Below, one piece after another: positions 333-58,192 of a DNA stretch of 64,000 nt (position 1 is the stretch's first letter; the number at the start of each line of letters is the position of its first letter). Location of the stretch: positions 97,402,001 to 97,466,000 of the forward strand of contig OZ024743.1 in assembly GCA_964016885.1 (NCBI GenBank), given 5' to 3'. The notes under the pieces are model-generated. The model worked only from the letters and a program-made list of their open reading frames with translations. It was not told where the DNA came from and ran no database searches. The position numbers and the translations under genes were made by a program. This stretch comes from Eledone cirrhosa (Eukaryota).

Positions 333-520
333 AAGTTTATCATGGATTCAATTGGGTGTAACCACAGTAAGTAAGGTACTCATTACATAGCAGAGTATAA
401 ATATTTAATAAAGAAATGGCTTCTACAGGACTAGAACTGTTTCATTCGGGAGAAATTATCAGGAAGGTCTGATCATTTCTCCCAAATGAAGCAGTTTTAG
501 TCCTGTATAAGCCATTTCTA
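333..520. mobile_element. TA-flanked fold-back PLE-end remnant, family A; hammerhead cores decayed in both arms
   Basis: Inverted arms ~411-462 and 469-520; same sequence at 3189-3395, 12703-12845, 14660-14835, 33335-33385, 49560-49665; cores read CTGATAA (minus) and CTGATCA (plus). Confidence 0.75.
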
Positions 521-1131
521 TACTATATATATATATATATATATATATATATATATATATATACATATGTATATATATATATGTATGTATATATATACTG
601 TATGTATATTTGTACGTGTACATGTAAGTATGTTTGCATGTAAGTATGTTTGCATATATTCATGTATGTATGTATAGATAGATAATAAGAGTGCTACATA
701 GAAAATAACCAATAACAAAAACGAAAACAAGTAAAGTGATGAGTCAAAACTTGTGTGTAATTAAATATTAATTAAGCATGTTCACAGTGACTTGGAAGAT
801 TGGCTGGCGGTATGTGATACATCTGTAGTACGGCGGCTGTAATAAGACATCACCGACTATCGAACTTCCAATGAACTTGAACGTCCCTTCATACAAACAA
901 GCATACATATAGAAACATATATGTGTATATAGACTGTTTATATATATATATATATCACCCTCTCTTTCGTTTTCTCTCTCTCTCTCTCCCTCTCTCTCTC
1001 TCTCTCTCTCTCTCTCTCTCTCTCTACACACACATATATATATATATATATATATATAAGTGTATAGAGAGAGAGGGACAAAGAAAGAGCGAGTGATATA
1101 TATATATACATAAATATATATATATATATAT

Positions 1132-1338
1132 AACGGCGATGAATTAGTTTTGCGAGGTTTTTGATATGAAATCGTGTGTCGAAACAAATATTGTTATACC
1201 TGGGGAGGGTCATATTTGTGTAATATTGCCAGAATTAATAACAGAACACACTGGCGAAAACCAACCAAACAGTGAGTGTGTTCTGTTATTAATTCTGGCA
1301 ATATTACACAAATATGACCCTCCCCAAGTATAACAATA
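1132..1338. mobile_element. Fold-back remnant of the 3' terminus of the PLE family at 36251-38064
   Basis: TATTGTTATAC(C/T)TGGGGAGGGTCATATTTGTGTAATATTGCCAGAATTAATAACAGAACACACT matches 36251-36315; present here as two inverted arms, the left one with an extra ~55 bp tail; (TA)n on both sides. Confidence 0.85.
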
Positions 1339-1669
1339 TATATCTATATATATATATATATATATATATATATATATATATATAGTAATAATAATAAATT
1401 TGAAGACTAAAATCCATATATATATATATATATATATATATATATATATATATATATATATATATATATATATATATATATATATATATATATAGAGAGA
1501 GATAGATAGATAAATATACACGGGTGTGTATGATTGTGTATAGAAGATTATATTAATAAAAGGAATTCCAACTTCGTCTGATTTACTCGTTTTATTTACA
1601 ATCCTTTAAAATTCATAATGGTATTAGAATGAAATAGTATGGTAGAATATTAAATGTTAAGTGTTAATT

Positions 1670-1706
1670 GAACAAGTACTTTCATGCTTTCGCAATCTTC
1701 AGGTTC
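1670..1706 (-). ncRNA. Minimal type-I hammerhead ribozyme
   Basis: Minus strand GAAC-CTGAAGA-TTGC GAAA GCAT-GAAA-GTAC-TT-GTTC; stem I GAAC/GTTC, palindromic GTAC loop III. Confidence 0.85.
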
Positions 1707-1760
1707 ACATTGTGTGGTGAAAGTTGAAAATTGCAAACTTGACTGTCACGACACAACATA

Positions 1761-53842: not shown

Positions 53843-54221
53843 ATTGGCAGTATCGGTAGAGGGTTGGACGCCATGCTTTCTAGCATAGTTACGTCCCTTT
53901 ACAGTCTGAGTTCAAATCCCGCCGAGGTTAACTTTGCCTTTCATCCTTACGGGGTCGATAAAATAAAGTACCAGTAATGTACTGGATAATTGCTGGCCTT
54001 GTGCCTAAAGTAGAAACAATTATGTGTCAAGGGCGCTGGATTGGCAGTATCGGTAGAGGGTCGGACGCCATGCTTTCCACCATAGTTACGTCCCTTTGCG
54101 GTCTGAGTTCAAACCCCACCGAGGTTAACTTTGCCTTTCATCCTTACGGGGTCGATAAAATAAAGTACCAGTAATGTACTGGGTTTTTGCTGGCCTTGTG
54201 GCAAAAGTAGAAACAATTATG
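53843..54221 (+). mobile_element. Two tandem tRNA-derived SINEs
   Basis: 53843-54022 and 54040-54221 are near-identical ATTGGCAGTATCGGTAGAGGG..GAGTTCAAA.CCC..AAAGTAGAAACAATTAT units. Confidence 0.85.
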
Positions 54222-54376
54222 TGTCAATCCTATAACACTTCGCCATAATATGTACCCATATCTAAATAAATGTATTCCCTCCTGGATGAAACTATGCTAC
54301 TGCTGATAACATTCCCAGAAGATCAACCAATGTTTTATTTCGAATAGTTGAACTATGCCATGAACAACTTTATAAG

Positions 54377-54459
54377 TATTGGGTTGTAACATACATTCCC
54401 GCCGTTTTGTTATTAAGAAGTCTTATAACAACGGCGGGAATCTATGTTACAACCCAATA
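54377..54459. mobile_element. Tiny mariner-like MITE (hairpin)
   Basis: TA|TTGGGTTGTAACATACATTCCCGCCGTT ... AACGGCGGGAATCTATGTTACAACCCAA|TA. Confidence 0.7.
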
Positions 54460-55260
54460 TTATAAAATATTCTATATCTGCTTATTTTTAGTTTAGATAT
54501 GAAAAAATGTAAAGTTGGCAGTTAAAAGAAAGGTCATATTTTCTAGTGATTAACTTTTTTCTTTTATTTCTTAATAAAGTTTCTATTAGTCCAGTCACTT
54601 TTTCGGTGTGAATGTAAACGATTGATTTATCATCATCTGGAATAGTTGCCAAAATATGTTCATTATATATTCTAGAGAAATCTTGCTATGCGATAACCCA
54701 TTTCTAATTATCGTCGTTTACAGAAGAAAGGTTAATATGTATTAATATATATATTAATATATATATTAATATATATATTAATATATATATATATATTAAT
54801 ATATATATATATATATATATATATATATATATATATATGTATATATATATATATATAATCTCATCACGAACTTGTCTGTCGCGATTAAGAGTTTAATACG
54901 TTCCAGTTACTTTCTATAACGGATGCCTATATATGTTTGACACCAGCCAGTTAAAACATTAGCAATGAGTGGAAATTTTACTACCGGTGTTTCAATGTAT
55001 CAAAGCTTGTTTTATCAATGACAGATAATAACATAAAGCCGTAGTTGTATATGAGATGAATAGTACAGATATTCGAAAGTAAAAGAAACCTCATAACAGT
55101 TTTGTTTTTACTTACCACAGAATGATATATTAACATTTGACTTTAGTATAGTTTTATTTATGTACATACACAAACATACACATACACACACACAGTTATA
55201 TATATATATATATATATATATATATATATATATATATATATATATATATATATATATATA

Positions 55261-56254
55261 ACTTTCTTTTTATTTGCCACCAGGGCTTCAAAAAGTGGGA
55301 CAAGTACAATGGGGGGAGTTTACATAAAAAGGCGTCCTCAATAAGGAGGAGGCAATAACAAAATATAAAAAATAATATATAAAATATAACAAAAATAAAT
55401 TTAATAACAAAATCCTCAATAGGGAGGAGGCGCATTGTGGGGTCGCACACATCCACGAAAAAAGTGTGCAACCCTGCTCCTCAGGAGCACAGAGAGGGGG
55501 TGCTCCCTTGATCTTTCATCTTCCTCACCTATAGTCTGATGTAGAGTGAAGGCCCATTCACACGGGCCATTCTCGCCACTTTCACCCATCTTTCATAAAA
55601 TCGGCTGGGGTGCCACACCTCTCTCTCCATCCTGATCCTTCTTCCGAAATGATATCGGAAGAAGCGGACCAGTTGTTGGCCAGAGAGAAAGGTGTCTGAC
55701 CTCAGTCCTTTCAGACGCGTCCACCATACAACCTCTTCGCCATGGCTATTACGCACAGAAACACCGCCTCTTCTTGGTTTTTGAAGAGGAGAGGCAGCTA
55801 GATCGTTACAATTGACTCGGTGGTCAACCGGATCGGTCCCACCCTTGACAGCTGTTGTTCGACATAGCCGCACAGATCGGCAATGCCCGAGCAGTGTACC
55901 AATGCGTGTGCAACGGTTTCATCGTCGCACACGTATCTGCGACAGATCTTTTTCGAGAGGTCCCTACCCGGGCGCCGGTGTCTGTAGAGCCTTTCTCGAA
56001 CAGGCAGAGCCCCTTGGTAGCACTGCCAGGCCAGGGACATCTGGAAGTTATCCATGGGTCCCGAGCTGAATGTCCTACCGAACAGGTTGGCCAGTTCGTC
56101 TTCCTCCATGCCTGGGGCTTCTCCGAGGGCGTCGTCGCACCTGCTAACCACTAGCCCTCTATAGAATGACGAGGTGGATTCTCCACTGACAGCGGGTTTC
56201 GCCTGCCAGAGAGCCGTGACCGCCTGGGCACACTCGGTGTGACAGGCGCCCAGT
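55261..56254 (-). mobile_element. Tx1/L1-like LINE 3' fragment (C-terminal zinc-finger region and 3' UTR) between (TA)n runs
   Basis: LAWQCYQGALPVRERLYRH..C..CDDETVAHALVHC; VVWWTRLKG; A-rich end AAATAAAAAGAAAG. Confidence 0.8.
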
Positions 56255-58192
56255 CTATACATATATATATATATATATATATATATATATATATATATAT
56301 ATATATATATATATATATATATATATATATACATATATATATATACATATATATATATATATATATATATATATATATATATATATATATATATAAAAAT
56401 ATATATATACATATATATATATATATATAAATATATAGTGTATTTGATTCAGTGAATTACGGTAATGGTGTTCCAATATGAGCACTTAATAACGAGACAA
56501 CCGACGAAGTTTCGTTTACATGTTTTCATTGTGTATCGAGCTTTTACGCGCGTTTCACAGAGGATTGGCTCAAATTCATCCATAGAGTCACGGACTCGAC
56601 TCCAGTATCGATGTGCTCGTTAGAATAGTGATTGATACAACAGAAAATAAAGTGCTTTGGAAATGTCGATACACGATAAAATAAAATATGAACTTCATCA
56701 TTTTTATTCTTATATATATATATATACTCACAAACGACCGTATATATATATATATATATATATATACGGTCGTTTGTGAGTGTGTGCGTGAATTAAGATA
56801 AATATATTTAGAGAAATATGTTTTGCATTTCACTTCAACATTAGCTTCAATGCATTCATTGACTTTTCCTGTTTTATGTAAAATATTGGCTCCAAAATGA
56901 ACAGCCACAGCATGATTGAGTTTAACAATTCGAGACATTTGACATCAACGTATGACCGCAATGTTTAGCGTTGGAAGATGGTTTGAATAACAGGAAACAA
57001 TCGCGAAATACCGTAATACATTGTGTCTTAGAAGGAGAATAGCCGAATGATTAAGATATACCCGGCACAATGCCACTCTGTGGTATCTTGTGAAAATGTA
57101 TTTTACTACAGTTCCAGTTCTACCTATATTTCATTAATTAATTGTGGAGACGAAATATATGCAGGATCCCGTCGTATGGATTGTACCTGTTATTCAAATG
57201 TTCGGCGTTGATACTCATTAAATACCTCTGACTCTCTATAAGAATTACGGTAAAGCGATTAATTAGAGTCCCATTCCTTCTTGAGCATAATGATTAAACG
57301 TTAAATAGGATGTATGTGAAATTAGGTAACGTTTCAGATCTGGTTATCATAATACTTTCTTTTTTATCTTATTTGCTCTCCTTTGCACTGTATTACGATC
57401 CTGCATGTCTTTCTAAGGATTATGTTAATCTGTCCAATGCCCTCGAAAACTTCCGCTTTGCTAACCAGGAGATCACTTTAATAATGTCTAATGGTTCTTT
57501 CACACAATATAGTATATTTATTCGCTATGATAGTGAGATTGTTTACGAGCTGTTTATTGCTGAATTTTAACGGAAGAGAGGAAAACCTGAAACCTTACAT
57601 TATTATAACGTATGAGGTTTAACAATAAACTGTGGCATGTATGCGTTTCCAAGAACGTAAATTTGTGAAGTGACGAGAGAATAAATCGAAGCAATAGTAA
57701 AATCCAAAGTCAACCACACCTCTTTTACTACATCTGCATACTCTTATCTTAAAGTACACAAGAAAGATTTCTGGAAATATAGTATAAAGACCTTCTTTTA
57801 TAAATACTTATATAAGGAAGGATATTATGTATGGATATTTTCTTGATTTATTCGTCTTTTTGTGTAAATGTGAATCCACTCAACTGTCGTACTGATTTAG
57901 TATTCTTATAAAACATAAAAAGTAAAATCTGAAAAATATAAAATCAGAATTTGTTCCCCATGGTACTTAAAGAAAAGTGATAAATCATAGATCTTTAATT
58001 GCTTGTATACTAAAATATTACTCACCAAAGAGTATGTTTGTAAAAATGAAGGATTTATTTCATAAATATAACAACAAAAAACAAATTAATAATTGAAATA
58101 AAGCAATCCATTTACAAGCGATGAGCAAATTTGAATTCTGAAAGTGTTAGCTTCTGGTAAGCTGCTACAACATAGGTTTAACTAGAAAATAG

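What the first reader, a model, noticed from the sequence alone, without database searches (positions are those of the whole stretch)
333..56630. About 14 unrelated families of (TA)n-embedded mini-elements, each built around a minimal hammerhead ribozyme
Seen: the 100-700 bp islands between TA runs recur as families with no shared primary sequence. Yet they fold into stem I / CUGANGA / stem II / GAAA / short palindromic stem III / UH / stem I. Examples are at 1761, 3329, 4677, 7539, 10618, 11075, 14441, 19609, 22296, 33211, 36461, 38678 and 53405, with 3' halves at 4014, 23824, 34813 and 49864. Stems covary between copies (CTTC/GAAG vs GATTC/GAATC; AAG/CTT vs AGG/CCT). Known: PLE pseudo-LTRs encode minimal type-I hammerheads with palindromic stem III loops. 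Inference: this is a very diverse, TA-targeting PLE/retrozyme-like community. More than 20 motifs in 64 kb would imply a huge, probably unannotated ribozyme repertoire genome-wide.
Basis: partly seen in the sequence, partly recalled or inferred. Interest (0 to 1): 0.92.

Follow-up and report, generated by a model that had tools for sequence, protein, structure and literature searches.

The report
Ribozyme-bearing Penelope retrotransposon stubs
The small repeats between the TA microsatellites are short, often folded-back end pieces of several Penelope-type jumping genes that carry self-cleaving hammerhead RNA motifs; the pairing is known, but the numbers here are very large and the stubs seem to mark where each element's RNA starts.

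Summary
The hammerheads are real: 12 intact type-I motifs in the window against 0.37 in shuffles, compensatory stem changes, and a TA run within 250 nt downstream of 49 of 57 motifs. They are not retrozymes, and not every copy holds a ribozyme. They are stubs of the terminal repeats of TA-targeting Penelope-like elements (PLEs). Seven of 17 window families were traced to RT/GIY-YIG genes, and two full-length elements were found (Neptune-like; Hydra clade). Ten families remain unlinked. PLE hammerheads and a TA-targeting octopus Hydra element are published. Not found in my ten paper searches: about 3.3e5 intact motifs genome-wide (range 2.1-4.6e5), and sharp 5' ends in two families that fall on initiator-like bases 30 nt after a TATA-like box. 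In one of these the box lies inside ribozyme stem II. Best reading: reverse transcriptase starts near the ORF start and runs off the mRNA 5' end, on both target strands, giving short fold-backs. Cleavage and start sites are untested.

The parts
8227..8626 (-). Inverted 5'-truncated pLTR of family F2, hammerhead core at 8414
   Evidence: 92% inverted match to 10408-10813; motif
8624..10411 (+). Decayed, 5'-truncated RT + GIY-YIG ORF of a Neptune-like PLE (F2), in three frames
   Evidence: 91-98% to an intact genomic ORF; weak Pfam RVT_1 and GIY-YIG
10408..10813 (+). 3' pLTR of F2 with hammerhead 10618-10660, ending in (TA)n
   Evidence: full element L100
36254..38064 (-). Second Neptune-like PLE, 5' end cut at a TA run; degenerate hammerhead, core at 36496
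   Evidence: 63% aa to the F2 ORF; intact relative in L164
52089..53511 (+). Truncated Hydra-clade PLE of family F7: last 42 codons of the ORF, 1.2-kb 3' UTR, hammerhead, TA run
   Evidence: 95% aa to the L158 ORF end; 22 identical genomic matches to its last 182 nt
53405..53499 (+). F7 hammerhead: U3-A8 core (UUGAUAA), 55-nt stem II region, 6-bp stem III; predicted to fold as a monomer
53424..53459 (+). TATA-like box (53424) and initiator-like base (53454) inside F7 stem II; 53454 is the modal 5' end of short copies
   Evidence: promoter function inferred
4852..5035 (+). F7 fold-back stub with only 3' halves of the ribozyme (others: 3473-3619, 5410-5593, 17391-17579, 35858-36054, 51051-51240 minus, 23584-23708 minus)
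3195..3394 (-). F1 fold-back stub with hammerheads at 3275-3325 (minus) and 3329-3377 (plus); Hydra clade; others at 335-522, 12706-12834, 14668-14834, 33335-33404, 49558-49660
   Evidence: ORF link in L169 and L062
19484..19768 (+). F8 fold-back stub, hammerhead 19609-19659 with CAGAAGA core; Hydra clade; others at 3689, 12301, 17237, 34686, 50534, 51405-52078
   Evidence: core in 31 of 31 cluster members; ORF link
10880..11266 (+). F6 fold-back stub, hammerhead 11075-11139; others at 2845-3129, 13597-13858, 33401-33653, 50050-50482
   Evidence: ORF link in one locus, L120
1554..1912 (+). F3 fold-back, hammerheads at 1669-1707 (minus) and 1761-1795 (plus); no ORF link found
35468..35804 (-). 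F13 fold-back, hammerhead 35695-35732 (plus, U3-A8 core); others 7904-8102, 49775-49999; no ORF link found
4586..4797 (+). Family S4682, hammerhead 4677-4714 (CCGAUGA here, CUGAUGA in most copies); no ORF link accepted
22296..22404 (+). F4 stub starting at the core; 5' arm of stem I replaced by the TA run (others 1961-2054 minus, 2367-2416)
33211..33315 (+). S33216, slightly damaged hammerhead; intact copy in L107
7537..7585 (-). F12 damaged hammerhead (CCGAAGA); intact copy in L087
14441..14491 (+). F15 damaged hammerhead in a fold-back (partner core 14428 minus)
38679..38768 (-). F22 hammerhead with mutated core and long stem II (other copy 56525-56632)
3779..4078 (+). F9 fold-back holding only 3' halves (GAAAC at 4014)
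23762..24004 (-). F19 fold-back with a 3' half; family intact and ORF-linked in L051
34802..35025 (+). S34813, 3' half only

Best explanation
The islands are stubs of the pseudo-LTRs of several autonomous, (TA)n-targeting Penelope-like retrotransposons (Hydra clade and a Neptune-like clade), each family with its own type-I hammerhead. Shown: family identity, ORF links for 7 of 17 families, TA-anchored 3' ends, fold-back geometry. From published biochemistry of one other PLE (Frangieh 2024): the protein cuts AT-rich DNA on both strands and starts reverse transcription internally at two nearby sites at the pLTR-ORF junction, using uncleaved RNA. Inferred: priming at the junction nearest the mRNA 5' end gives a 130-170 nt copy that runs off at the transcription start; doing so on both strands gives a fold-back with one short arm and one arm carrying the 80-100 nt tail. 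Priming at a downstream junction of a tandem transcript gives long, randomly truncated copies. Odds: PLE origin of the linked families about 0.95, of most unlinked families about 0.75; run-off at the transcription start for F1 and F7 about 0.65. Most genomic copies are probably inactive as ribozymes.
For: Full elements with inverted pLTR + pLTR/hammerhead + ORF + pLTR/hammerhead: L100, 1239-aa ORF, and L158, 731-aa frame. Shared upstream lengths of 25 F8 and 25 F7 copies range from about 30 nt to the 1500-nt limit and run into GIY-YIG ORFs. F1 pLTR leads into a Hydra ORF start. Two 3' ends joined to TA, 80 nt apart, in F7 contigs. 5' ends: F7 25 of 58 arms at +44..+51 from C3, mode +44, TATTTAAA at +14; F1 33 of 53 arms at -7..0, TATAAATA at -36 (the F1 set includes query-selected loci; unselected only, 12 of 17). 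TATAAA kept at that place in 7 of 8 natural F1 upstreams across subfamilies; base rate 0.4%. 11 of 11 F7 fold-back spacers differ. No pile-up of 5' ends at the cleavage site.
Against: Ten families have no ORF link in the DNA held, and F6 and F19 rest on one locus each. No sharp 5' peak in F2, F6, F8 or cluster 5. TATTTAAA was added to the TATA pattern after seeing F7, and the other F7 subfamily reads TATTCATA there. About 14 of 40 F13 hits share one junction geometry, as copies of one master would. Clade assignment rests on motifs, not a tree; Pfam found nothing in either full ORF. No RNA data.
Confidence: 0.75

Rival explanations
1. Same PLE origin, but the short copies arise because reverse transcriptase stalls at the folded ribozyme (5' arm of stem I, or inside stem II) and then snaps back or is joined to a second copy; the TATA/initiator match is coincidence.
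For: Peaks lie at or inside the ribozyme in F1, F7 and weakly F8; the F7 motif folds stably.
Against: The F7 peak is nearly single-base and recurs in non-fold-back junctions; the F3, F13 and S4682 boundaries lie 40-100 nt upstream of the fold; the F1 TATA is conserved while its flanks diverge.
Confidence: 0.12
2. Some families (F13, S4682, F3, S33216) are non-autonomous short elements or retrozyme monomers, amplified from short master copies by PLE proteins in trans.
For: No accepted ORF link for these among 24, 20, 11 and 25 arms (the hits for S4682 and S33216 were to neighbouring F2 or F7 elements); shared 5' boundaries; recurring F13 junction.
Against: No tandem arrays; F6 had 66 arms and only one showed its ORF, so a missing link in small samples is weak; F7 and F1 looked the same until longer copies were fetched.
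Confidence: 0.12
3. The motifs are chance folds in AT-rich, palindrome-rich repeats.
For: One AT-rich satellite gave 24 spurious hits (L060); the descriptor was widened after inspecting the window.
Against: 45 hits vs 2.0 in shuffles in 380 kb of unselected genome; covariation beyond controls; fixed position 200 nt after the ORF in 61 F2 loci.
Confidence: 0.01

Closest known systems
Hydra-clade PLEs (Craig et al. 2021, PMC8557442), including Hydra-1_Obim
   Same: C-terminal GIY-YIG, DKT, CxCX5C, CxxC and CxH motifs, hammerhead in the pLTR, (TA)n insertion, inverted truncated copies and tail.
   Different: Here at least five Hydra-type families with unrelated hammerheads coexist; the F7 unit is about 3.6 kb with a 1.2-kb 3' UTR (paper: generally under 3 kb); motif reads RWR rather than RWK; tails are 80-100 nt rather than 30-40.
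Neptune/Nematis PLEs
   Same: F2: single ORF, C-terminal GIY-YIG with two internal cysteines, CX4CXXC linker, pLTR hammerhead, TA target.
   Different: Neptune versus Nematis not resolved (no tree); stem III loop is not palindromic.
Minimal PLE hammerheads (Cervera and de la Pena 2014, PMC4209133)
   Same: Type I, palindromic stem III, many unrelated families per genome, mostly single or opposite-strand pairs 100-700 bp apart, U3-A8 variant.
   Different: About 3e5 motifs versus 2,000-9,000 reported there (different descriptors); 13 of 36 clusters have 49-107 nt stem II regions; a family fixed for CAGAAGA; several stems III of 4-6 bp.
Poseidon of Anolis, in vitro (Frangieh et al. 2024, PMC11167929)
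   Same: Two RT start sites bounding the tail, both strands extended, uncleaved RNA as template: matches the two 3' ends and read-through of the cut site seen here.
   Different: Other clade; the parts I read do not describe leader-only copies or start-site mapping from genomic stubs.
Non-LTR retrozymes (Cervera 2020, PMC7229834; Li 2026 preprint)
   Same: Short, non-coding, type-I hammerhead, high copy (120,000 in axolotl), proposed PLE link.
   Different: Those are head-to-tail tandem repeats giving circular RNAs; these are inverted or single stubs in TA runs.

Membership tests
Type-I hammerhead ribozyme (PLE type) | CUGANGA and GAAA..UH core with stems I and II | tested here: met
   12 window motifs vs 0.37; cores CUGANGA 26, UUGANAA 4, CCGANGA 4, CAGANGA 2 of 36 clusters
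Type-I hammerhead ribozyme (PLE type) | Compensatory changes in stems | tested here: met
   F6: 7 of 9 stem II pairs change on both sides, 33 cells vs 10.2 shuffled; F1 weaker, 3 pairs; relatedness not controlled by the shuffle
Type-I hammerhead ribozyme (PLE type) | Short palindromic stem III | tested here: inconclusive
   23 of 36 clusters strictly palindromic; 8 of 12 among those of 7 nt or less, where the descriptor does not require it; F1, F2, F7, F8 differ
Type-I hammerhead ribozyme (PLE type) | Self-cleavage after NUH | not testable with these tools
   needs a bench assay; no RNA run listed
EN+ Penelope-like element | Single ORF with RT and C-terminal GIY-YIG between pLTRs | tested here: met
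   L100, L158 (its N-terminus lies in another frame); 7 of 17 families linked
EN+ Penelope-like element | Partial tandem, inverted truncated copy, tail | tested here: met
Hydra clade | DKT, CxCX5C linker, CxxC and CxH, RWK-like motif, no CCHH | tested here: met
   L158 motifs (RWR); 106, 113 and 105 of 120 relatives carry DKT, CxCX5C and RW[KR]
Hydra clade | Placement in an RT tree with reference elements | not tested
Neptune clade | CX2-5CxxC linker before GIY-YIG | tested here: met
   L100; 105 of 120 relatives; shared with Nematis
Neptune clade | Tree placement apart from Nematis | not tested
   no reference set
Non-LTR retrozyme | Head-to-tail tandem units each with a hammerhead | tested here: not met
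   1 same-strand pair vs 20 inverted pairs among 260 motifs; none in the window tandem list
Non-LTR retrozyme | Circular RNA expression | not testable with these tools
   no RNA holder listed
Naiad | N-terminal endonuclease, no canonical hammerhead | tested here: not met
   endonuclease is C-terminal in L100 and L158

The most novel reading that the evidence does not exclude
The stubs are a fossil map of PLE transcription starts, and promoter and ribozyme are built into each other. In F7 the promoter lies inside stem II, so an mRNA started there carries only the substrate half of the hammerhead at its 5' end and a whole ribozyme at its 3' end: the cap is protected in cis, while the two ends could pair as a split ribozyme and be ligated into a unit-length circle. 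In F1 the transcript begins with stem I. That would give PLE hammerheads a defined role.
Probability: 0.3. Interest if true: 0.82.

Novelty: new variant of a known kind. Interest (0 to 1): 0.57.

Why it matters
What PLE hammerheads do is still open (Craig 2021 and Frangieh 2024 say so in the passages read). This genome offers dozens of natural variants, a very young family with a monomer-type fold, and junctions that predict exact RNA 5' ends, so the question becomes testable. The estimated 3.3e5 motifs exceed the counts in the papers read (up to 120,000 retrozymes in axolotl). Such stubs could be part of the 893 'unclassified SINE' families listed for Octopus vulgaris (my inference). If transcribed, the fold-backs form long hairpins that would hide the ribozyme and could feed RNA editing or silencing (inference).

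Tried and rejected
Rfam scan: listed matches were microsatellite-driven miRNA hits, no hammerhead among the 150 shown. A strict descriptor found only 3 motifs; it was widened in steps. Pfam: weak hits on window fragments, none on the two full ORFs. Dropped before counts: satellite L060 (17 hits, 24) and two AT-rich single hits (clusters 30, 33); loci overlapping the window or each other; 5 of 33 rows for the F6 alignment (two antisense, one duplicated, one deleted, one distant), with one window copy added; 12 of 44 rows for F1 (damaged junction arms). 5' ends at the cleavage site: looked for, not enriched. ORF links for clusters 8, 10 and 16 were rejected as neighbouring insertions (checked for L147; the others judged by identity to F2). 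Possible introns inside long stems II: noticed, not tested. No RNA holder listed, which is no evidence on expression. The contigs laid come from one study and may be the assembly's own sample; their depth is not a copy number. Earlier-findings look-ups returned nothing. Lunse et al. (RNA Biol) was not held; I saw only its title. Flanks of F6, S4682 and F13 search hits were not obtained, so their upstream sequence is open. bioRxiv supplements were not visible and could bear on the retrozyme comparison.
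Full report
Setting. The window is G000:C4:97402001-97466000 in a 3.0-Gb genome. The best named relative of its main retroelement protein is from Octopus vulgaris at 69% identity, so an octopod host is likely (inference). It has 112 merged (TA)n runs, and self-BLAST shows recurrent families, many as fold-backs.

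Are the ribozymes real? A strict descriptor found 3 motifs. Allowing a mismatch at the base of stem II, short stems III and the cores UUGANAA and CCGANGA gave 11 against 0.32+-0.56 in 200 shuffles. Adding CAGANGA and long stems II gave 12 in 8 families against 0.37. Because the descriptor was tuned on the window, I tested it on 39 evenly spaced 10-kb genome stretches: 45 hits in 380 kb against 2.0 in shuffles, after dropping one AT-rich satellite with 24 spurious hits. With two more doubtful hits removed, 43 motifs from 20 clusters in 20 of 39 stretches give about 3.3e5 genome-wide (bootstrap 2.1-4.6e5). Copies gathered by homology alone covary: in F6, 7 of 9 stem II pairs change on both sides; in F1, 3 of 13 pairs. 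49 of 57 motifs have a (TA)5 run within 250 nt downstream, against 17.3+-3.7 for random positions.

Seven of 13 pass as stated; six are damaged or cut. Many copies lack a whole ribozyme: 34 of 81 arms span it, 15 hold the 3' half, 32 lack the GAAA half. Across 36 clusters, 23 have a strictly palindromic stem III and 13 have a stem II region of 49-107 nt. U3-A8 and a U-U pair opening stem II are known tolerated variants (Perreault 2011, section 8; Cervera 2014). The CAGAAGA core, in 31 of 31 F8 members (25 loci were selected on this family), is not among the variants in the text I read.

What the families belong to. F2 is the terminal repeat of the decayed RT/GIY-YIG element at 8624-10411. A complete copy has inverted pLTR, pLTR with hammerhead, 1239-aa ORF and pLTR with hammerhead, in TA-rich flanks (L100), with a CX4CXXC linker: Neptune or Nematis type. 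F7 has 22 identical matches over 182 nt and a complete copy with a 731-aa frame (L158) carrying the DKT, CxCX5C, CxxC and CxH motifs that define the Hydra clade (Craig 2021, section 11). F8 continues upstream into a Hydra-type endonuclease; F1 leads into a Hydra ORF start; F6 and F19 do so in one locus each; S36496 follows the second Neptune-like ORF. That is 7 of 17 families. F3, F4, F9, F12, F13, F15, F22, S4682, S33216 and S34813 are unlinked in the 1 Mb held, which is weak evidence either way. Tandem arrays, which define retrozymes, are absent.

Where the short copies end. Long F7 and F8 copies stop at scattered places. Unselected F7 copies do not: 22 of 42 end at +39..+50 from C3 and only 2 reach upstream of the core. 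Against a natural reference the mode is +44, inside stem II (25 of 58 arms in +44..+51), and many junctions break at or next to the same A. Summed contig depth falls 30-40-fold across this point, and about 10-fold along the ORF from 3' to 5' (indicative only, since depth is no copy number and divergent subfamilies may map unevenly). F1 ends cluster at -7..0 (33 of 53 arms, partly query-selected; 12 of 17 unselected; 19 of 25 loci read by eye). In both, a TATA-like box lies 30 nt upstream and the peak is an initiator-like A (consensus patterns recalled). The F1 TATAAA is kept in 7 of 8 natural upstreams (two unrelated rows set aside), with a base rate of 0.4%. F3 shows a peak 33-35 nt after TATAAAAG, but against a single reference copy. 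F2, F6, F8 and cluster 5 show no sharp peak. Ends do not gather at the cleavage site. All 11 F7 fold-back spacers differ, pointing to independent events; F13 has about 14 of 40 hits with one junction geometry, which could mean a master copy.

Mechanism. Frangieh 2024 (parts 1-2 of 4 read) showed for an anole PLE that both target strands are cut and extended, that reverse transcription starts internally at two sites bounding the tail, and that uncleaved RNA is the main template. Schostak 2008 (passages) placed the Penelope promoter in the pLTR, TATA-less. Applied here (inference): priming near the mRNA 5' end gives a short run-off copy, two such copies give a fold-back in a TA run, and later insertions into the same TA runs build the clusters. 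The rival is stalling at the ribozyme fold. Fold-backs would trap the ribozyme in a long hairpin if transcribed whole; 21 of 55 intact motifs have an inverted copy within 700 nt. Only the F7 motif, of 8 folded, is predicted to form the three-way junction alone.

Comparison and novelty. Cervera 2014 (parts 1-2 of 4) described minimal PLE hammerheads, 2,000-9,000 per genome, mostly single or on opposite strands. Craig 2021 (passages, sections 11-12, supplement rows) lists Hydra-1_Obim with (TA)n preference. Cervera 2020 (passages) reports over 6,000 motifs in a coral and 120,000 retrozymes in axolotl. Li 2026 (part 1 of 5) links retrozymes to pLTRs. Weinberg-type review PMC6765202 was read as passages. 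The O. vulgaris repeat paper (passages and section 6) has no occurrence of 'ribozyme'. My ten searches listed no paper on a cephalopod hammerhead census or on leader-only copies marking start sites; the library lacks most subscription papers and Repbase. Verdict: a known kind of element, with an unusual scale and a testable new clue to its mechanism. Interest 0.57.

Noticed in passing
window 55261-56260 (minus): Truncated non-LTR element with a weak zf-RVT match, whose 5' end abuts a 135-nt TA run.
   Followed up: no
window 14922-16426 and 6348-7138 (minus): Two related decayed LINE-type RT fragments (RVT_1 E 9e-15; 66% alike), also between TA runs.
   Followed up: no
window 26067-26315, 48654-49086, 53832-54227, 59718-60802: Abundant SINE-like family of about 190-nt units, some in tandem; resembles mollusc SINEs from recall only.
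   Followed up: no
window 63121-63236, 6132-6246, 2496-2532: tRNA-like head (Rfam tRNA 32.6 bits at 63131-63192) in a repeat family, probably a tRNA-derived SINE.
   Followed up: no
window 4852-5333 and 5410-5905: Near-identical duplication of an F7 stub plus a 225-bp unassigned island, 558 bp apart; likely slippage between TA runs.
   Followed up: no
L120, L158, L176 upstream of the hammerheads: Pyrimidine tracts ending in AG, like 3' splice sites, 170-270 nt upstream in F6 and F7 and directly at stem I in F1; D. virilis Penelope has an intron ending at helix I.
   Followed up: no
L142:1106 and L163:6599: Long stems II (105-107 nt) contain GTATGT or GTAAGT and, in L142, end in CCTAG at the GAAA box; possible intron inside the ribozyme.
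   Followed up: no
L060 (C7:30.0 Mb): AT-rich satellite of about 280-bp units with no TA runs that mimics the U3-A8 descriptor.
   Followed up: partly
L043:6464 and 6986: The only same-strand hammerhead pair within 1 kb (522 nt apart, no TA run between): a possible dimer or small retrozyme.
   Followed up: no
window 61169-61860: GC-rich decayed coding remnant with inverted ends (61226-61285 vs 61801-61860); no Pfam match.
   Followed up: no
L100:5800-6200: The F2 ORF has an Asn/Thr/His-rich low-complexity stretch of variable length before the RT.
   Followed up: no
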